This document shows, piece after piece, positions 4,308-14,210 of a stretch of DNA of 24,000 nt. The notes beneath the pieces are model-generated. The model ran no database searches and was not told the DNA's origin. It saw only the letters and a program-made list of their open reading frames with translations. The translations under genes were made by a program, and so were the position numbers. The number at the start of each line of letters is the position of its first letter. Within the stretch, counting starts at the first letter, position 1. Source of the DNA: Candidatus Woesearchaeota archaeon (GTDB lineage Archaea > Nanobdellota > Nanobdellia > Woesearchaeales > UBA11576); contig JABGYH010000001.1 in assembly GCA_018675335.1 (NCBI GenBank), forward strand, positions 162,908 to 186,907, written 5' to 3'.

Positions 4308-4328
4308 AAATATTGAGATTTGATAAAA

Positions 4329-6230
4329 ATGAAACCAAAATCAGAAAAAAACGACAATAAAGTTAAAGAAGATAACCTGCCCGATCTAGATTACAAAAAG
4401 TTAGGATTAAAATGTGGCATTGAGATTCATCAAAGATTAAAAACTAATAAACTATTTTGTAATTGTCCTTCAATTCTTAGAGATGATACTCCTGATATCA
4501 TAATCACTAGAAAATTACGAGCAGTTGCAGGTGAAACTGGTGAAATTGATATTGCAGCAAGACACGAACTTGAAAAAGACATTTATTTTATTTATGAAGC
4601 ATATTCTGATACTACTTGCCTGGTCGAACTTGACGAAGAACCACCTCATTTAATGAATAAAAATGCACTCGATATTGTTTTACAAGTGAGTTTAATGCTT
4701 GATGCAAAAATTGTAGATGAAGTTCAAATCATGAGAAAAACTGTTGTTAATGGGTCTAATACTTCAGGATTTCAACGCACAGCTCTTGTTGCAGAACAGG
4801 GAAATTTAAAAACTTCCGAAGGAGATGTTTCAGTTTCAGTTATTTGTTTAGAAGAAGAAGCAGCAAAAGATGTAGAAAAAGGCGTTGATAAAAATGGCAA
4901 ACGATTTGCTAAATATAGACTTGATAGATTAGGGATTCCTTTAATTGAAGTTTGCACAGGACCCGACATCAAAACCCCTGAACAATGTTTAGAAGCCGCA
5001 GCAAAAATTGGCATGATTTTAAGATCAACTGGAAAAGTTGCTCGCGGAATAGGAACCATAAGACAAGATGTTAATGTTTCGATTAAAGGTGGTGAAAGAA
5101 TAGAAGTTAAAGGTGCTCAAGATCTTAAAATGATTCCGACCATGATCAAAAATGAAACACTTAGACAAATTGCACTTTTAGAAATTAAAGATCAACTTAA
5201 AAGTCTTAAAGACGAAACTATTAAAGATACTATTTTCGATCTTTCAAAAATATTCAAAAATTGTGAATCTAAAGTTGTTCAATCTGCTTTAAAAAAAGGA
5301 GTTGTTTTTGGAATTAAACTACCTAAATTTAATGGATTAATTGGTAAAGAAATTTGCCCCACTAGACGATTAGGAACTGAATTTTCAGATTATGCCAAAG
5401 TAAAAGCAGGAGTTGGAGGAATTTTTCATTCAGATGAACTTCCAAAATATGGTATTTCTCCTGAAGAAGTTGAATCTGTTAAAACTGAATTAAACTGTGC
5501 AAAAGATGATGCATTTGTTTTAGTTGCGGATTCAAAAATTAAATCAGAGAAAGCATTAAACGAAGTTCTTAGACGAGCAAAACTTTGTAAAAACGGAGTG
5601 TTAAAAGAAGTTAGAAAAGCAAATCCTGATGGGACTACTTCATTTATGAGACCAATTCCTGGCGCTGCTAGAATGTATCCCGAAACAGATACGCTCCCAA
5701 TTAAAACAGATTCTGAACTTAAAAATATTCAATTACCTGAATTAATTGAAGATAAAGCAGAAAGATTTCAGACAATGTTTGGTTTAAGTAAAGATTTAGC
5801 AGAAGTTCTTGCTAAAAGTGAGTTAAGTTTTGCATTTGATAAATTTGTAGACAAATTTAAAAATATTAAAACTGCATTTATTGCTGAAACTCTTATTTCA
5901 ACTCCTAGAAATATTAAAAGAAAATTAAATATTGAAACTGATCATCTTGATGAACTTATTTTCGAAGAACTTTTCTTTTTACTCAATAAAAATGAGATTT
6001 CAAAAGATTCAATTGAAGATATTTTAATTAAATTTGCTAAAAAAGAAGAAGTAAATTTTAAAGATTACAAACCAATGTCTGATAAAGATATTTCAAATGA
6101 AATAAAAAAAATAATTCAAGAAAATAAAAATGTTGAGTTCAAACAGCTAATTCCCAAAGTTATGGCTCAACTAAAAGGCAAGGCAGAAGGTAAAAAAATC
6201 ATGGAACTTCTTCAAAAAGAATCCAAATAA
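4329..6230 (+). CDS. gatE: Glutamyl-tRNA(Gln) amidotransferase subunit E
   Basis: GatB/E-type motifs LGLKCGIEIHQRL, VNGSNTSGFQRTALVA and GIGTIRQDVNVS. The ORF track starts at TTG 4320; I prefer ATG 4329, but either start is possible. Confidence 0.9.
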   Translation: MKPKSEKNDNKVKEDNLPDLDYKKLGLKCGIEIHQRLKTNKLFCNCPSILRDDTPDIIITRKLRAVAGETGEIDIAARHELEKDIYFIYEAYSDTTCLVELDEEPPHLMNKNALDIVLQVSLMLDAKIVDEVQIMRKTVVNGSNTSGFQRTALVAEQGNLKTSEGDVSVSVICLEEEAAKDVEKGVDKNGKRFAKYRLDRLGIPLIEVCTGPDIKTPEQCLEAAAKIGMILRSTGKVARGIGTIRQDVNVSIKGGERIEVKGAQDLKMIPTMIKNETLRQIALLEIKDQLKSLKDETIKDTIFDLSKIFKNCESKVVQSALKKGVVFGIKLPKFNGLIGKEICPTRRLGTEFSDYAKVKAGVGGIFHSDELPKYGISPEEVESVKTELNCAKDDAFVLVADSKIKSEKALNEVLRRAKLCKNGVLKEVRKANPDGTTSFMRPIPGAARMYPETDTLPIKTDSELKNIQLPELIEDKAERFQTMFGLSKDLAEVLAKSELSFAFDKFVDKFKNIKTAFIAETLISTPRNIKRKLNIETDHLDELIFEELFFLLNKNEISKDSIEDILIKFAKKEEVNFKDYKPMSDKDISNEIKKIIQENKNVEFKQLIPKVMAQLKGKAEGKKIMELLQKESK

Positions 6231-6330
6231 ACACTTTTAACTTACTTTTTAATACAACAAACTCATTTAAAATAGAAAACTATAAAAACCACATTTAATT
6301 AAAATAATAAAACGGGTGTTAATACATAAA

Positions 6331-7596
6331 ATGAGTTTACAAATTCAAATTGTTTCACTAGCAATATTATTATTTTTCTCAGGACTGTTTTCAGGTATTG
6401 AAACAGCATTTTTTTCACTTTCTAATCTTAAACTCAGAAGTTTGTTAAAGAAAAAAAAGAAAGGAGCAGATGTTGCATATAAACTTAAACAAAATCCTAA
6501 ACGTTTAATTATTACAATTCTTATTGGAAATAATGTAGTAAATATTGGTGCGGCATCTTTAGCAACAATTATTGCAATTGATCTTTTTGGTTCAAGTGGC
6601 GCAGGTATTGCAACAGGAGTTATGACTTTTCTTGTTTTAATTTTTGGAGAAATTACTCCTAAATCAATCGCAAATACTTATTGTGAAAAAATTACTTTAT
6701 TAGTTGCAAGACCACTTCAAATTTTTATGTATTCAATTTTTCCATTAATTTTATTGTTTGAAGCAATAACTGAAATTATGTATAGTATTTTTAAAATCAG
6801 CAATAAACAACCAGTTTTAACAGAAGAAGAATTCAAAACTTTAGTTGAAATTGGCGCAGAAGAAAAAGTTCTTAAAATTAAAGAAAAAGAACTTATCGAG
6901 GGAGTTTTAGAATTTAGTGATATTACTGCAAAAGAAGTTATGACTCCTAGAACAAAAACTTATGCATTAGATGGAAATATGTCTCCTGGAAAAGCACTTA
7001 AATTAATTGCTAAAAGTCCTTTTTCTAGAGTTCCAGTTTATGAAGATTCAGTTGATAACATATTAGGAGTAATACACATCAAAGATGTTCTTCGAGAACT
7101 ACATCGTAAAGGTGCTAGTGTTCGAAAAATTAAAAAAATTGTTAAAAAACCTTATTTTGTTCCAGAAACAAAAATAATTAGTGAATTATTTAAAGAATTT
7201 CAAGAGAAAAAAGTCCATATTGCTTTTGTTGTTGATGAATATGGGGGAATTTCAGGAATTGTTACATTAGAAGATTTATTAGAAGAAATTGTGGGAGAAA
7301 TCATTGATGAAACAGATATTAATCCGGATTTAATAATGCGTATTGATCATAATACGATTGTTGCTCACGGAGAAACTGAAATTTATCATATTAATGAGTT
7401 TTTAGGACCTTGCCTTGCAGAAGATACTCCTTCAGTTACAATTAGTGGCTTGATATTAGAAAAACTAAAACAGTTCCCAAAAAAGAATGCTAAAATAAAT
7501 CTTGAAAAAGCAATTTTAAAAATTGAAGAAGTTAGCGATAATCATATTCTTAAAGTTAGAATCACTAAGAAAAAACCCGAATCATTAAAAAAATAA
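6331..7596 (+). CDS. CNNM/CorC/TlyC-family membrane protein (DUF21 TM domain, CBS pair, CorC_HlyC domain)
   Basis: N-terminal multi-TM region contains [12 protein letters not shown]-pair region contains VMTPRTK...FSRVPVY...[10 protein letters not shown]...[26 protein letters not shown]-terminal transporter-associated domain follows. The track start is GTG 6316; ATG 6331 is preferred. Confidence 0.85.
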
Positions 7597-7661
7597 ATTT
7601 TCTAAATTGGTTTATCATACCTCAATTTCAAAAGATTAAGTTACTAACTAAAAATAATGAA

Positions 7662-7879
7662 CGAGCCTGGAGGGACTTTCGCCAAACTTTCCGTGTTCAA
7701 ATAAATGGAAAAGATTGTTTCGAACCCTCGGTCTTCTGCTTTCACCAAAAATTGAAATCAAATTAATTTTTAATAATTCTTAGGAGGCAGATGCCCTATT
7801 TACCCGAAATTTAAAAAACTTCACAGCCTACAATTCTCAACGTAAATTTAAGATATTCACCAGGCTAGGCTACAGGCTC
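7662..7879 (-). tRNA. tRNA-Arg(CCU) gene interrupted by three putative introns (D-loop ~60 nt, anticodon loop 37/38 ~40 nt, T-loop ~43 nt)
   Basis: Read on the minus strand. Acceptor stem is GAGCCUG (7879-7873) with CAGGCUC (7669-7663), then discriminator G at 7662. U8 and A9 are present. D-stem is GCCU (7870-7867) with GGGC (7796-7793), and the D-loop starts AGCCUGGU. Anticodon stem is UCUGC (7791-7787) with GCAGA (7739-7735). Anticodon loop is CUCCUAA, anticodon CCU at 7784-7782. Variable loop is AGACC. T-stem is GAGGG (7729-7725) with CCCUC (7674-7670). T-loop is UUCGAA plus one residue. All stems are Watson-Crick or G-U. Exons sum to about 75 nt. Confidence 0.75.
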
Positions 7880-7940
7880 ATCTCGTTCATTCAATTATAC
7901 AATCCAGGTAGTTTAAATTATTTACTGTCTTTCCCAACAC

Positions 7941-7950
7941 ATTTATAAAT
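7941..7950. promoter_or_regulatory. Palindromic TATA-like element (atttataaat) between the divergent tRNA-Arg gene and ORF 7987
   Basis: A 10-bp perfect palindrome about 40 nt upstream of ATG 7987. An SD-like agaggg lies at 7974-7979. It could also serve the minus-strand tRNA, although aataatttaaac (minus strand, about 7909-7920) is better placed for that gene. Confidence 0.3.
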
Positions 7951-7986
7951 AATAATTAATTAATACTTTAAAAAGAGGGCATATAA

Positions 7987-9276
7987 ATGAAAAAGAGGTT
8001 AAAAGAATCTATTTTTGTTAGTATTCTAATTTATGTTGTTTTATTTGTATACCTAACTTCAGTTTCAGAATCATTACCAATTCATGTTCTTGTTGGAACT
8101 TGCCCAATCTTACTTCAAATAGCAACAATAGTTCTTGTTTCAGGAAACCGTCTTGATACTAAACTTGTTTGGTACTCGCCAATCATTTTTTTAGGATTAT
8201 TCTTATTTTTATGGGAAGGAAGCGCAGGAGGATACTTAGCGAAAATTTCAGGTCCTCAAATCAGCATATTAAATTTATTTATGTCATATCTTATAACTTT
8301 AATAATTTATTTTATTGCATTAAAATATTTGCCAAAACCCAAAAACACAAAACATATTCCCTCAACCACCGACCATCCAGAAAAAATTGACAAAGTAGAA
8401 TATGAAAAATTATTAGATAAATATGTTCACCTTTACAAAAATAATGAAAAAAGGATTTGGCAATTAAATAATGAATTAAATTCATTAACTGCAAAAAAAG
8501 ATGGCGACATTCATCAAATTGCACAGTATTATGAACACCAATTAAAAACTCATGCAACTGATGTAACACGTTTAAAACATGAAATGAATGAGAAGAATAA
8601 AATTAGTGAAACAGAATATGAGTCATTATCTGAAAAATATAAGAAAAAACAAAATGATAATCATGCTAGAATTTTAGAATTAACAGAAATGATCAATAAT
8701 GTTCGTCAGAAAAATTGGAAAAGATATATTAATTTACAAGAAAAATATTTGCAAGAAAAACAAATAAATTCTAAAGAGGTTAATAAATTAAATAAACATC
8801 TAAAAACTGTTAGGGAACAACTTGAAATTACTACAACTAATTTTTCCACAAGTCTTAGAAGTATTGAAGATAAATGTAAAGCAATTAATTCAGTAATTGG
8901 CAGAGTTTATTCTGACAGAAAAGGTGGAAGTAAAGAATTAAGAGAATTTTTAGCAATTGAGCGAGATTCATATAATGAGTTTTCAGAAATAACTAAAAGT
9001 TTTTCAGAAGATAATGTTCCAGATTTATTAAAAGTTTTATATGAAATTAGAAGTAAATTAAAAACAATGTATAAAAAAGAAAAACAAGTACTTGATAAAA
9101 TACCACTAAAAACAAAAATTAAAGTTAAGCGAGATAAAAAAGGCGAAGATCCAATCCTTTTAGTTCTAGCAAACAACGATAAAGATCCAATTCTTTATTA
9201 TTATGAAGAAGCAAGTGAGATCACATCTAAACTCATTAAATACCTTCATGAAAACTATTATCAAGGCAAAATATAA
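7987..9276 (+). CDS. Hypothetical membrane protein with a long coiled-coil-like cytoplasmic or extracellular region (429 aa)
   Basis: The N-terminal ~115 aa hold 3-4 hydrophobic helices (FVSILIYVVLFVYL, ILLQIATIVLV, IIFLGLFLFLW, LFMSYLITLIIYFIAL). The rest is K/E/N/Q-rich with a heptad-like character. No family motif recognised. Confidence 0.7.
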   Translation: MKKRLKESIFVSILIYVVLFVYLTSVSESLPIHVLVGTCPILLQIATIVLVSGNRLDTKLVWYSPIIFLGLFLFLWEGSAGGYLAKISGPQISILNLFMSYLITLIIYFIALKYLPKPKNTKHIPSTTDHPEKIDKVEYEKLLDKYVHLYKNNEKRIWQLNNELNSLTAKKDGDIHQIAQYYEHQLKTHATDVTRLKHEMNEKNKISETEYESLSEKYKKKQNDNHARILELTEMINNVRQKNWKRYINLQEKYLQEKQINSKEVNKLNKHLKTVREQLEITTTNFSTSLRSIEDKCKAINSVIGRVYSDRKGGSKELREFLAIERDSYNEFSEITKSFSEDNVPDLLKVLYEIRSKLKTMYKKEKQVLDKIPLKTKIKVKRDKKGEDPILLVLANNDKDPILYYYEEASEITSKLIKYLHENYYQGKI

Positions 9277-9384: not shown

Positions 9385-10431
9385 ATGTACAAATTAAAAC
9401 AAATTCCAGAAGATTTTATTGTTGAAGAAATTGCAAATCTTAAATTAGTTCCTAAAGGTAAATTCTTAATATATGAAATGAAAAAAAAAGATTGCAATAC
9501 AGTCCATGCAATTGAACAATTAGCAAAACACCTAAAAGTCCCATTAAAATTTATTGGATTTGCAGGATCTAAAGATCGTCATGCAGTAACAACTCAATTT
9601 ATTTCAGTTAAAAAAGCAAGACCTAATTTTCAATTTTTATTAGATCAATTCTCATCTGACTTAATATCTCTTGATCTTATTGGTGAAGCAGATGAACCCT
9701 TATCTTTAGGCGACTTAGAAACTAATCGATTTGTAATTACTGTTAGAAACTTAACTGATGATGATACGAATAAAATTCAATCATTCAAACCAGATCAGAT
9801 TGAGAATTATTTTGATGAACAAAGATTTTCTGAAAAAAACCCACTCATAGGAATAGAAGTTTTAAAAGGAAATTTCAAAGAAGTCTGTGATCTGTGTGAT
9901 GAATATTGTTGTAGAGATCATTTAAAAAAACAATCAAAAGATTTTGTTGGCGCATTCAAACGAATTCCTATGAAAATAAGACTTATGTATATTCATGCAT
10001 TTCAAAGTTTATTGTTTAATCGAGCATTACAACAACTAACCGAGGAACAAACCAAAAATCCAACTCTAACTAAATATTCATTCGGAACATTTGCTTTTTC
10101 AACACAAGACACAATAACTGAACAAAATTTACCATTAATTGGTTTCGCGTCAGAATTTGAAACTGGAAAAATCAATGAGTTATTCACAAGTTACCTAAAA
10201 GAATATGATATCACACTAAGAGATTTTGCCATCAGATCAATTCCCGCACTATCTTGCGAGGGAGATTTAAGACCTGCATACTTCAAAGTTAGCGGATTCG
10301 AATATGAGCTCATGGATGATGACCTAAATTCCGACAAGAAAAAAATTGTTCTTAAATTTATTTTACCTAAAGGTTCATATGCGACAATAGTAATTAAAAA
10401 GATATTTGGGCAATTAATCAAATCTAAATAA
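9385..10431 (+). CDS. truD: tRNA pseudouridine synthase TruD/Pus7 family
   Basis: Catalytic-Asp motif GFAGSKDRHAVTTQ matches the TruD signature G-x-K-D-x-x-A-x-T-x-Q. NYFDEQRF is also present. Length is 348 aa. A TATA-like aactttaaaac lies about 30 nt upstream. Confidence 0.85.
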   Translation: MYKLKQIPEDFIVEEIANLKLVPKGKFLIYEMKKKDCNTVHAIEQLAKHLKVPLKFIGFAGSKDRHAVTTQFISVKKARPNFQFLLDQFSSDLISLDLIGEADEPLSLGDLETNRFVITVRNLTDDDTNKIQSFKPDQIENYFDEQRFSEKNPLIGIEVLKGNFKEVCDLCDEYCCRDHLKKQSKDFVGAFKRIPMKIRLMYIHAFQSLLFNRALQQLTEEQTKNPTLTKYSFGTFAFSTQDTITEQNLPLIGFASEFETGKINELFTSYLKEYDITLRDFAIRSIPALSCEGDLRPAYFKVSGFEYELMDDDLNSDKKKIVLKFILPKGSYATIVIKKIFGQLIKSK

Positions 10432-11440: not shown

Positions 11441-12331
11441 ATGAAACAAAACGAATTTTTAACAAAAATAGGAAAAATTTTTACTATCGCAATAGCTACA
11501 TCAATGATATATGGCCCAACACAGATTGGAACAATCAACCAAGCACAGGCAGCTGAAAAGCCAGAAGAAACAATAAACACACTAATCATTGCTAAAACAA
11601 AAAGAAAAACATCACAACCAACTCACAAAATTAAAACTAACACTACTCAAACAAGAAGCTTATCTCAAATAGTAAATCAAGCAAATCCTAATTCGTCTAA
11701 AACTAGAATTTCATATTTAGCAAAAGGACAACCTGCAACAGACCATGATTTAGCAAGAATTGTTATTCACACAAATAATGCAACCATAAAAATGACAGAT
11801 ATTGCAGATCATTTTCGTGACGCAGATGAAATTCCAGATGTAATAGAACTTAATGGAAAAATAGTTTGTACAGGAAATAATTGTAAACAATACAAAAAAA
11901 AATTCGTAGCAGTAAGAGATCAATTGATAGATCAGCATTTAAAAAACATAGACGAATATGTTCAAAAAGGAAAATATATTTTACCAAAAAATGAAGGTAA
12001 AAATTATTTTATTGAAGACCACAGCGGATTCCTGACATTTTATTCTCCAGATAAAAAATTCAAGTACAGATTTGTAGATAGTGATGGAGATGGGACTCCC
12101 GAAGAAATCCAAATAATAGAATACCAAGGAAATAAATCAAGATTAGTTTTACATGCGATCCGCGATAAATTTACAGAAAAAAAGTTCAAAGGTCTAATGA
12201 GTAAATTATACAAAGGAATGTGTAAACATCAAAAAGTCAAAACTGATTCCGAATATAATTCTAATCCAAAACCAAAAAAGAATGAATTAGATTATGAACT
12301 AGATAAAGCTCTAGATTCTTTAATGAGGTAA
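11441..12331 (+). CDS. Hypothetical secreted or membrane-anchored protein (296 aa)
   Basis: N-terminal signal-like segment IGKIFTIAIATSMIYGPTQIGTINQAQA|AE. T/K/N-rich linker. The C-terminal region has a DSDGDGTPEE acidic loop. No family recognised. Confidence 0.7.
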   Translation: MKQNEFLTKIGKIFTIAIATSMIYGPTQIGTINQAQAAEKPEETINTLIIAKTKRKTSQPTHKIKTNTTQTRSLSQIVNQANPNSSKTRISYLAKGQPATDHDLARIVIHTNNATIKMTDIADHFRDADEIPDVIELNGKIVCTGNNCKQYKKKFVAVRDQLIDQHLKNIDEYVQKGKYILPKNEGKNYFIEDHSGFLTFYSPDKKFKYRFVDSDGDGTPEEIQIIEYQGNKSRLVLHAIRDKFTEKKFKGLMSKLYKGMCKHQKVKTDSEYNSNPKPKKNELDYELDKALDSLMR

Positions 12332-14103: not shown

Positions 14104-14210
14104 GCCTCCGTGGCTTAGTGGCTATAGCGGCTGACTTGTAAACCAACATAATACCCAAAATTGTTGACCAAGCAATCAGCAGGTCGCGAGTTCAACTCTC
14201 GCCGGAGGCT
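14104..14210 (+). tRNA. tRNA-Thr(UGU) with a ~34-nt canonical intron at 37/38
   Basis: Acceptor stem GCCUCCG/CGGAGGC. D-loop AGUGGCUA. Anticodon stem GCUGA/UCAGC with loop CUUGUAA (UGU at 14137-14139). T-arm GCGAG-UUCAACU-CUCGC. Discriminator U at 14210. The intron 3' end CAAG pairs with loop CUUG, giving a 4-bp central helix flanked by 3-nt bulges (BHB-like). Confidence 0.88.

What the first reader, a model, noticed from the sequence alone, without database searches (positions are those of the whole stretch)
7662..7879. tRNA-Arg(CCU) gene split by three intervening sequences (D-loop, 37/38, T-loop)
A 218-nt minus-strand locus gives a near-perfect cloverleaf only if about 143 nt are removed at three places. 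All stems are Watson-Crick or G-U, and U8, A14, G18G19, U33, G53, U54U55C56 and C61 are all in place. The removed pieces are ~60 nt inside the D-loop (between AGCCUGGU and A-GGGC), ~40 nt after position 37, and ~43 nt near T-loop position 59/60. The last piece lies between UUCGAA and U-CCCUC. Established knowledge: multi-intron tRNAs with non-canonical positions are well known in Thermoproteales. They require a broad-specificity splicing endonuclease: the crenarchaeal alpha2-beta2 type or the epsilon2 type described from ARMAN. Three introns in one gene in a DPANN-like genome are therefore informative about the lineage's EndA type. The D-region insertion carries an internal near-repeat (UUAAAUUUACG and UUAAAUUUCGG). 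It admits an alternative D-stem (GCCU/AGGC), which would imply a fourth intron at 26/27. The canonical intron boundary looks like a relaxed rather than strict BHB.
Basis: partly seen in the sequence, partly recalled or inferred. Interest (0 to 1): 0.6.

Follow-up and report, generated by a model that had tools for sequence, protein, structure and literature searches.

The report
Three-intron tRNA-Arg(CCU) gene, Woesearchaeota
This is a real arginine tRNA gene of a small DPANN archaeon, cut into four pieces by three short protein-spliced introns; the type is known, standard tRNA finders miss it, and related species carry the same gene with anywhere from zero to three of these introns.

Summary
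On the minus strand, window 7879-7662 encodes a tRNA-Arg(CCU) interrupted by three introns: 60 nt in the D-loop, 40 nt at 37/38 and 43 nt at 59/60. Bulge-helix-bulge (BHB) geometry and seven intron-free orthologs place it after G19, giving a 75-nt product with D-loop AGCCUGGAUA and the arginine determinant A20.

Twenty-nine orthologs from the same order (Woesearchaeales-like, DPANN) splice to collinear 75-nt tRNAs. All 21 stem pairs are kept, 11 with compensatory changes. All eight presence/absence combinations of the three introns occur. It is the only CCU decoder found in a 97%-complete genome, and synteny (GatE, TruD) is conserved.

The genome, and 38 of 40 relatives, have one 176-aa alpha4-like EndA, with no beta subunit and no epsilon2 form. 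It also lacks the lysine-rich insertion of the Nanoarchaeum alpha subunit. No fourth intron is supported.

This scan had already found the same architecture in this genome's tRNA-Arg(UCU). Verdict: a sound new member of a known kind, of moderate interest.

The parts
7860..7879 (-). Exon 1 (20 nt): acceptor 5' strand, U8 A9, D-stem 5' strand, D-loop up to G19
   Evidence: identical in the same-genus ortholog G001
7800..7859 (-). Intron 1 (60 nt, 28% GC), D-loop after G19. BHB: H = GCCU/GGGU, bulges GG|U and AA|A, h = CCUA/UAGG, h' = GAA/UUC. Contains the near-repeat UUAAAUUUACG / UUAAAUUUCGG and an AGGCU block that pairs with exon nt 13-19 in the MFE fold
   Evidence: (H4 h4 h'3); exon-intron covariation of H across orthologs
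7781..7799 (-). Exon 2 (19 nt): A20 U20a A21, D-stem 3' strand, A26, anticodon stem 5' strand, loop C32 U33 C34 C35 U36 A37
   Evidence: pattern ATRGNGYRNCNGCCTCCTA hits 50 of 201 genomes of the order, reversed control 0
7741..7780 (-). Intron 2 (40 nt, 15% GC), canonical 37/38. Relaxed BHB: H = CUCC/GGUG with a U33-U mismatch, bulges UA|A and AA|A, h = anticodon stem (5 bp), h' 3 bp. The junction can slide by one A without changing the product
7719..7740 (-). Exon 3 (22 nt): A38, anticodon stem 3' strand, variable loop AGACC, T-stem 5' strand, U54 U55 C56 G57 A58 A59
7676..7718 (-). Intron 3 (43 nt, 35% GC), T-loop 59/60. BHB: H = UUCG/CGAA (4 Watson-Crick pairs), bulges AA|A and AG|U, h = T stem (5 bp), h' long but offset by one unpaired G
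   Evidence: this BHB is the unconstrained minimum-energy fold of the whole precursor and of the local substrate
7662..7675 (-). Exon 4 (14 nt): U60, T-stem 3' strand, acceptor 3' strand, discriminator G73; no encoded CCA
7650..7661 (-). T-rich trailer (UUCAUUAUUUUU), terminator-like, as after most other tRNA genes of this genome
   Evidence: flank comparison of 25 tRNA genes; function inferred
7912..7917 (-). TTTAAA box 33-38 nt upstream of the mature 5' end, candidate TATA box
   Evidence: inferred only, in an AT-rich spacer
7940..7949 (.). TTTATAAATG box, the same motif found about 30-40 nt upstream of several other tRNA genes here. It lies 61-70 nt upstream of this tRNA and 38 nt upstream of the divergent ORF at 7987 (+). 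Its core is palindromic, so it may serve either or both
   Evidence: inferred only

Best explanation
Window 7879-7662 (minus strand) is the single, functional tRNA-Arg(CCU) gene of a Woesearchaeales-type DPANN archaeon, interrupted by three protein-spliced (BHB) introns after G19, A37 and A59. Shown: the exon order; a 75-nt cloverleaf after excision; a BHB at each junction; conservation and covariation in orthologs; and genes for EndA and RtcB. Inferred: the gene is transcribed as a precursor of about 218 nt plus leader and trailer. The genome's only splicing endonuclease, a 176-aa alpha4-like EndA acting as a homotetramer, cuts two nucleotides into each 3-nt bulge of the three BHB motifs. RtcB joins the four exons and probably circularises the introns. 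The ends are trimmed and CCA is added, since none is encoded. The product decodes AGG.
For: Excision gives a tRNA-Arg(cct) with perfect stems. The BHB-defined splice gives 75 nt with A20 and C35, the classical arginine determinants. Twenty-nine orthologs splice to collinear 75-nt sequences: 100% of cells are paired in 21 stem pairs, and 11 pairs show double-sided changes. Seven uninterrupted orthologs have the same layout, score 63.6-70.2 bits on Rfam tRNA and are called Arg(cct) by ARAGORN. The central helix covaries between exon and intron: GCCU/GGGU, GUCU/GGAC and GCUU/AAGU in the D-loop intron, UUCG/CGAA and UUCA/UGAA in the T-loop intron. The bulges AA|A and AG|U are nearly invariant. The same-genus ortholog keeps 72 of 75 exon positions, while its introns differ in length (28/41/60 nt against 60/40/43). 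GatE and/or TruD synteny is conserved in three-intron and intron-free relatives. No other CCU gene was found. AGG is 9% of Arg codons. EndA with Y112, H122, K153 and RtcB are present. The same three-site architecture occurs in this genome's tRNA-Arg(UCU) and tRNA-Lys(UUU).
Against: In silico, the intron-1 BHB conformer lies 7.7 kcal/mol above a competing exon-intron helix, and the intron-2 conformer 10.3 kcal/mol above an AU-rich alternative. The intron-2 central helix has a U-U mismatch. The EndA lacks every insertion so far linked to broad specificity, so whether it can process the relaxed site is unproven. The genome is 97% complete, so a second gene in the missing part cannot be strictly excluded.
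Confidence: 0.9

Rival explanations
1. Decayed pseudogene: a former tRNA-Arg(CCU) filled with insertions and no longer expressed or spliced, with AGG read by tRNA-Arg(UCU).
For: No expression data. Two of the three BHB conformers are not minimum-energy folds. The UCU isoacceptor exists and could read AGG by wobble.
Against: All 21 stem pairs are intact and every conserved nucleotide is present. Exons are 96% identical to the same-genus ortholog while introns diverge. The insertions sit exactly at BHB-competent sites that are shared and covarying in other families of the order. The UCU gene has the same three interruptions, so the same argument would remove both AGR decoders.
Confidence: 0.04
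2. One reading: the D-loop intron is 61 nt at 20/21 (GGU|...AAAU|A), giving a 74-nt tRNA with D-loop AGCCUGGUA.
For: ARAGORN also accepts the 74-nt product. In the MFE fold a 3-nt unpaired GUG follows the competing helix.
Against: There is no BHB at that junction: the central helix cannot pair (hand check, and the pair is absent from the scan). All seven intron-free orthologs read GGAUA, not GGUA. The conserved AAAU before A21 is explained only by the bulge AA plus exon AU. It would replace A20, the arginine determinant, with U.
Confidence: 0.04
3. Four-intron model: the AGGC inside intron 1 is the true D-stem 3' strand, and a further intron lies at 26/27.
For: GCCU/AGGC is complementary, and the extended helix nt 13-19 / 50-56 is part of the MFE fold.
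Against: Intron-free orthologs show the GGGC block directly joined to A26 and the anticodon stem. The AGGC element is missing from intron 1 of G001, G018 and G024. No BHB was found for the implied junctions.
Confidence: 0.01
4. The gene is functional, but the annotated alpha4-like EndA is not sufficient: an undetected partner subunit or another nuclease is needed for the relaxed or competing-fold junctions.
For: Literature links relaxed BHB cleavage to alpha2-beta2 or epsilon2 enzymes or to loop insertions (PMC5829648, PMC3239211). This EndA has none of those insertions. Its best PDB match is the N. equitans alpha subunit, which works with a beta partner.
Against: Sensitive phmmer and profile searches of all ORFs of 50 aa or more find no second homolog. 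There is one copy per genome in 38 of 40 relatives. Unlike N. equitans alpha, this protein keeps both the catalytic triad and the acidic L10-like loop needed for homotetramer assembly. It aligns to M. jannaschii alpha4 with a single 1-residue gap.
Confidence: 0.15

Closest known systems
Three-intron tRNA genes of Thermoproteales (Crenarchaeota), found with SPLITS-type BHB searches (Sugahara et al. 2007, 2008; reviewed in PMC4090602)
   Same: Up to three BHB introns in one tRNA gene. One is at 37/38 and the others lie in the D and T regions; 20/21 and 59/60 are listed sites. The genes are invisible to ordinary tRNA finders.
   Different: Those lineages have alpha2-beta2 EndA with the Crenarchaea-specific loop, whereas here there is a single alpha4-like EndA without it. 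The lineage is DPANN and the genome is 30% GC. The D-loop site by BHB rule is after G19.
tRNA-Arg(UCU) of the same genome (G000:C3:351405-351613), earlier finding e1-1109599 of this scan
   Same: The same three insertion sites, the same bulge sequences (GG|U, AA|A; AA|A, AG|U) and the same T arm. Intron 1 is partly alignable: 73% over exon 1, intron 1 and exon 2.
   Different: Different anticodon (UCU), acceptor and anticodon stems, and different intron 2 and 3 sequences and lengths (58/27/49 nt).
ARMAN-2 (Candidatus Micrarchaeum) pre-tRNAs with non-canonical introns, cut by epsilon2 EndA (PMC3239211)
   Same: A DPANN lineage with non-canonical intron sites that overlap those of other archaea.
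   Different: ARMAN-2 uses a three-unit, roughly 390-aa epsilon2 enzyme with a specific loop. Here the EndA is 176 aa and has one unit. Its Tyr-to-His spacer is 9 residues, as in M. jannaschii.
DPANN alpha4-type EndAs associated with disrupted tRNA genes (Kaneta et al. 2018, PMC5829648)
   Same: The same general observation: DPANN genomes, including a Woesearchaeota MAG, combine an alpha4-type EndA with many disrupted tRNA genes and incomplete predicted tRNA sets.
   Different: That paper attributes the association to the L3 loop. At the site of the lysine-rich N. equitans/ARMAN-2 insertion, which I take to be L3, this EndA and all 80 Woesearchaeal homologs examined have no insertion.

Membership tests
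Archaeal tRNA gene with BHB (protein-spliced) introns | Exons join collinearly into a complete cloverleaf with the universal nucleotides | tested here: met
   ARAGORN calls the spliced product tRNA-Arg(cct). The 75-nt product is collinear with seven uninterrupted orthologs that score 64-70 bits on RF00005.
Archaeal tRNA gene with BHB (protein-spliced) introns | Intron 1 junctions lie in two 3-nt bulges separated by a 4-bp helix (hBHBh') | tested here: met
   H 4/4 (two G-U pairs), h 4 bp, h' 3 bp. H is 4/4 in 13 of 15 orthologs and covaries between exon and intron. Caveat: it is not the minimum-energy local fold in this gene (+7.7 kcal/mol).
Archaeal tRNA gene with BHB (protein-spliced) introns | Intron 2 (37/38) junctions in a BHB | tested here: inconclusive
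   Both 3-nt bulges and h (5 bp) can be drawn, but H has a U33-U mismatch and the conformer is 10.3 kcal/mol above the free fold. H is 3/4 in 12 of 17 orthologs, so this is a relaxed motif.
Archaeal tRNA gene with BHB (protein-spliced) introns | Intron 3 (59/60) junctions in a BHB | tested here: met
   H = UUCG/CGAA, bulges AA|A and AG|U, h = T stem. It is present in the unconstrained MFE of the whole precursor and of the local substrate. h' is offset by one unpaired G.
Archaeal tRNA gene with BHB (protein-spliced) introns | Splicing endonuclease and RtcB-type ligase encoded in the genome | tested here: met
   EndA at G000:C3:320846-321376 (PF01974 at 1.7e-29, PF02778 at 6.3e-12). RtcB at G000:C8:36438-37703 (2.9e-160).
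Archaeal tRNA gene with BHB (protein-spliced) introns | Spliced mature RNA and excised or circular introns observed | not testable with these tools
tRNA-Arg (arginine identity) | Anticodon CCU with C35, and A20 in the D-loop (classical ArgRS determinants, established knowledge) | tested here: met
   C34 C35 U36 and A20 are present in the BHB-defined product and in all 29 orthologs. Aminoacylation itself was not testable.
alpha4 (homotetrameric) EndA system | One EndA gene of about 170-180 aa that carries both the catalytic triad and the L10-type acidic loop | tested here: met
   A single 176-aa gene with Y112, H122, K153 and DAETD. It aligns to M. jannaschii 1a79 at 2.4e-30 with one 1-residue gap. 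Tetramer assembly was not testable.
alpha2-beta2 (heterotetrameric) EndA system | A second, structural beta-subunit gene | tested here: not met
   No second homolog in this genome at E<=100 apart from noise. The marginal ORF C3:92017-92409 has no Pfam hit and only a 37-residue weak match. One copy in 38 of 40 relatives.
epsilon2 (three-unit) EndA system of ARMAN | A polypeptide of about 390 aa with three EndA units | tested here: not met
   The ORF is 176 aa with one N-terminal and one C-terminal domain. It matches only single units of 4fz2.
DPANN alpha4 EndA with L3 loop (Kaneta 2018) | Lysine-rich insertion between the catalytic Tyr and His, as in N. equitans alpha and ARMAN-2. That this insertion is L3 is my reading of PMC3239211 and PMC5829648 | tested here: not met
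   The query has gaps of 2+4 residues opposite the N. equitans kkGKrser stretch. The Tyr-to-His spacer is 9 residues in this EndA and in all 80 Woesearchaeal homologs.

The most novel reading that the evidence does not exclude
In Woesearchaeales a plain alpha4-type EndA, with no beta partner and none of the L1/L2/L3 specificity insertions, is the sole enzyme that removes introns from non-canonical and partly relaxed BHB sites. BHB introns are also actively gained and lost at three hot-spot sites (after G19, A37 and A59), as suggested by all eight presence/absence states of one syntenic orthologous gene within a single order. That would separate broad substrate use from EndA architecture and give a natural system for studying BHB-intron mobility.
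Probability: 0.3. Interest if true: 0.65.

Novelty: new member of a known kind. Interest (0 to 1): 0.38.

Why it matters
Annotation: a 97%-complete genome shows only 18-20 tRNAs to ARAGORN and Rfam, and no arginine tRNA at all. Genes like this one explain the gap, and they should not be read as missing decoders or reduced translation capacity in DPANN.

Evolution: one orthologous, syntenic tRNA gene occurs across one order with every combination of three introns. That is a clean dataset on gain and loss of protein-spliced introns at fixed sites.

Enzymology: the lineage pairs heavily interrupted tRNA genes with the simplest EndA type. The proposed link between EndA architecture or specificity loops and intron diversity can therefore be tested directly with one recombinant protein and one 218-nt substrate.

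Tried and rejected
- **Direct detection.** ARAGORN and Rfam on the unspliced locus found nothing, even at E<=10. This is expected for this architecture.
It gives no BHB and disagrees with the intron-free orthologs, so I rejected it in favour of 19/20.
- **Fourth intron / alternative D-stem.** Rejected.
- **Second CCU gene.** An anchor at C7:73815-74010 was first mis-called 'Arg cct' by my pipeline. By hand it is tRNA-Lys(UUU) with three introns. A scan for CCU anticodon arms gave 102 chance-level hits, and only this locus has a D-arm context.
- **Beta subunit.** The marginal profile hit C3:92017-92409 (E = 0.016) is not an EndA relative.
- **Thermodynamic support for all three BHBs.** Only the intron-3 BHB is the MFE fold. 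Introns 1 and 2 rest on comparative evidence.
- **Automatic tRNA census.** My first variant picker was unreliable. I therefore report only hand-checked genes and the count of T-loop insertions.
- **Failed or empty calls.** One search was a malformed call of mine and gave no result. No supplementary files are held for PMC5829648, so I could not see that paper's own call for its Woesearchaeota MAG.
- **Literature.** No paper in the searchable library combines 'three introns', tRNA and DPANN.

Full report
**1. The observation**

Read on the minus strand, window 7879-7662 contains four GC-rich blocks separated by three AT-rich stretches. ARAGORN finds no tRNA in the whole window. Rfam finds only a tRNA at 14104-14210. 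A permissive Rfam search of 7400-8150 gives no tRNA match, even a partial one. The exons are 60% GC and the introns 27%, in a genome of 30% GC. The locus lies in the 390-nt spacer between a CNNM/CorC transporter gene (6316-7596, +) and an ORF with no family match (7987-9276, +). GatE lies upstream and TruD downstream.

**2. Where the splice sites really are**

I used the standard BHB geometry. It follows from the anticodon-intron pair between position 32 and intron position -3, which is established knowledge:
- The four exon nucleotides that end two positions before the 5' cut pair with the four intron nucleotides that end two positions before the 3' cut.
- Each cut lies after the second nucleotide of a 3-nt bulge.

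Scanning the locus and five homologs with this rule gave these results:
- **Intron 3.** H is UUCG/CGAA and the bulges are AA|A and AG|U. The T stem forms the outer helix.
- **Intron 2.** It sits at 37/38. H is CUCC/GGUG with a U33-U mismatch.
- **Intron 1.** It moves to GG|U ... GGGU-AA|AUAGGGC, that is, after G19. H is GCCU/GGGU and the bulges are GG|U and AA|A. The outer helix is CCUA/UAGG and the inner helix GAA/UUC.

This explains why the last bases of intron 1 (G-K-N-AAAU) are conserved in all homologs: AA is the bulge and AU is exon. The product is 75 nt with D-loop AGCCUGGAUA. In window coordinates:

| Piece | Window coordinates | Length (nt) |
|---|---|---|
| Exon 1 | 7879-7860 | 20 |
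| Intron 1 | 7859-7800 | 60 |
| Exon 2 | 7799-7781 | 19 |
| Intron 2 | 7780-7741 | 40 |
| Exon 3 | 7740-7719 | 22 |
| Intron 3 | 7718-7676 | 43 |
| Exon 4 | 7675-7662 | 14 |

These coordinates were checked.

**3. Lineage and relatives**

The window is G000:C8:162908-186907 of a 1.71-Mb, nine-contig genome that is 97% complete. The nearest EndA genes in named genomes all come from Woesearchaeota/Nanoarchaeia MAGs, at 61-74% identity. BLAST of the locus against 40 relatives found the exon blocks at similar spacing in the same-genus genome and in several other families. It also found a second locus in this genome, which is tRNA-Arg(UCU) with introns at the same three sites.

An IUPAC pattern for exon 2 hit 50 of 201 genomes of the order, while the reversed control pattern hit none. 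Twenty-nine orthologs could be parsed automatically. Every one splices to a collinear 75-nt tRNA-Arg(CCU). The intron states were:

| Introns present | Orthologs |
|---|---|
| None | 7 |
| One | 7 |
| Two | 8 |
| Three | 7 |

All eight combinations of the three sites are represented. The seven uninterrupted genes read GGAUA in the D-loop, which confirms the 19/20 junction. They score 63.6-70.2 bits on the Rfam tRNA model (gathering score 29), and ARAGORN calls them Arg(cct). Four three-intron orthologs that I tested (L107, L108, L116, L130) are invisible to ARAGORN. GatE and/or TruD homologs flank the gene in both three-intron and intron-free relatives, so these are orthologs.

**4. Evidence of selection**

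In the 29 distinct spliced sequences all 21 stem pairs are standard pairs in every sequence, and 11 pairs show changes on both sides. The same-genus ortholog keeps 72 of 75 exon positions, and one of its differences is a compensatory pair in the T stem. Its introns are 28, 41 and 60 nt, against 60, 40 and 43 nt here.

The BHB central helices covary between exon and intron. In the D-loop intron the pairs include GCCU/GGGU, GCCU/AGGC, GUCU/GGAC, GUCU/GGAU and GCUU/AAGU. In the T-loop intron they include UUCG/CGAA, UUCA/UGAA and UUCA/UGGA. The helix is 4/4 paired in 13 of 15 D-loop introns and 11 of 12 T-loop introns, but in only 2 of 17 canonical introns (12 of 17 have 3/4).

**5. Redundancy test**

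It is not met:
- ARAGORN and Rfam list no arginine tRNA at all in the genome.
- BLAST of the locus finds only itself and the UCU paralog.
- An anchor search on the T arm plus acceptor stem finds Arg(UCG) and Arg(GCG) with two introns each, Arg(UCU) with three, and this gene.
- A scan for CCU anticodon arms, with or without an intron, finds no other candidate in a D-arm context.
- AGG makes up 9% of arginine codons, about 3 per 1000 codons.

**6. Folding**

The unconstrained minimum-energy fold of the 218-nt precursor is -58.7 kcal/mol, with a z-score of -2.7 against mononucleotide shuffles. It recovers the acceptor stem and the complete intron-3 BHB. The AU-rich intron 2 also pairs through its 5' bulge.

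On local substrates the BHB conformers cost 7.7 kcal/mol (intron 1), 10.3 kcal/mol (intron 2) and 3.5 kcal/mol (intron 3; here the free fold already contains the BHB). Across orthologs the T-loop BHB is the free fold in 9 of 12, the D-loop BHB in 6 of 15 and the canonical BHB in 1 of 17. For introns 1 and 2 of this gene the support is therefore comparative, not thermodynamic. The competing helix is not conserved, which argues against the four-intron reading.

**7. The enzyme**

The genome has one EndA, of 176 aa. Exhaustive phmmer and profile searches of all ORFs of 50 aa or more find no second subunit, and the one marginal ORF is unrelated. Thirty-eight of 40 relatives also have exactly one match.

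The protein aligns to M. jannaschii alpha4 EndA with a single 1-residue gap (2.4e-30). Its best PDB match is the N. equitans alpha subunit (5e-36), but two differences from that subunit matter:
- It lacks the six residues of the lysine-rich N. equitans insertion between the catalytic Tyr and His.
- It keeps the acidic L10-like loop that N. equitans alpha has lost.

All 80 Woesearchaeal homologs have the same 9-residue Tyr-to-His spacer and an acidic loop. By sequence it is a plain alpha4-type enzyme. RtcB is present.

Kaneta et al. 2018 (PMC5829648) already reported that alpha4-type EndAs in DPANN, including a Woesearchaeota MAG, go with increased tRNA gene disruption and incomplete tRNA predictions. 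They attributed this to the L3 loop. I take L3 to be the insertion described by Fujishima et al. 2011, and on that reading this EndA has none. The two non-canonical introns have near-strict hBHBh' geometry, which archaeal EndAs recognise wherever it lies. The relaxed motif is the canonical one.

**8. Comparison with what is known, and verdict**

Multi-intron tRNA genes, including three-intron ones, and the 20/21 and 59/60 sites are documented, mainly in Thermoproteales. DPANN examples with multiple introns are summarised in PMC5829648. I found no paper in the searchable library that describes three-intron tRNAs in DPANN specifically, but that library is incomplete.

This scan had already reported the same architecture for this genome's tRNA-Arg(UCU), and it had also reported the single EndA. 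I re-derived both here.

The finding is a well-supported new member of a known kind. The points that go beyond routine are the eight intron states of one syntenic gene within one order and the loop-less alpha4 EndA. Splicing itself remains inferred, because no sequencing runs could be searched.

Noticed in passing
L134:116-311 (G000:C7:73815-74010, +): tRNA-Lys(UUU) with A1-U72 and three introns at the same three sites (after G19, 37/38, 59/60). It starts 7 nt after a tRNA-Asp(GUC) gene (C7:73694-73807) that carries only a 39-nt T-loop intron. The pair looks like a tandem tRNA cluster.
   Followed up: partly
whole genome G000: Only 18 (Rfam) to 20 (ARAGORN) tRNA genes are visible in a 97%-complete genome. 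My anchor search finds about 36 tRNA loci, 15 of which carry a 31-67-nt insertion in the T-loop, mostly with the UUCRAA|N ... YGAA-AG|U signature. Several further genes (a putative Met-CAU at C2:131133-131332, Ser-GGA at C2:132075-132250, Leu-UAG at C3:82242-82498) may also have three interruptions, but I did not resolve them by hand.
   Followed up: partly
L105, L108, L111, L114, L130 (37/38 introns of tRNA-Arg(CCU) orthologs): The 64-69-nt canonical introns of five orthologs share a conserved block AUGAAGAGAGUUAGCUGA (C'-like box, short spacer, D box). Most also have an upstream UGAUGA/AUGAAGA C box, which makes this a C/D-box guide-RNA-like element inside a tRNA-Arg intron. The 40-nt intron of the window's gene has neither. 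No target was identified.
   Followed up: partly
L106 (G179:C3, around 12095-12113): The single-intron tRNA-Arg(CCU) ortholog is followed about 60 nt downstream by a 15-nt direct repeat of its own 3' end (AUCCUCUCAGGCGCG). This looks like the attachment-site scar of an integrated element. The same genome has a second copy of the exon-2 pattern on another contig (C45).
   Followed up: no
window 14104-14210 (+): tRNA-Thr(UGU) with a 34-nt canonical intron (Rfam 55.6 bits). It is the only tRNA that standard tools see in this window.
   Followed up: no
window 4320-6230 (+) and 9385-10431 (+): GatE and TruD flank the tRNA-Arg(CCU) locus, and homologs of one or both flank the ortholog in several other families of the order. 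In this genome a CNNM/CorC gene and an unannotated 429-aa ORF lie between them and the tRNA.
   Followed up: partly
window 7987-9276 (+): A 429-aa ORF divergent from the tRNA gene, with no Pfam family at E<=0.001. A palindromic TTTATAAA box lies 38 nt upstream of its start.
   Followed up: no
G000:C3:351405-351613 versus window 7879-7662: Intron 1 of the Arg(UCU) and Arg(CCU) genes of this genome is partly alignable (shared UGAGAAU and GUUU blocks; 73% over exon 1, intron 1 and exon 2). This hints at common descent or transfer of the D-loop intron between the two AGR isoacceptor genes.
   Followed up: partly
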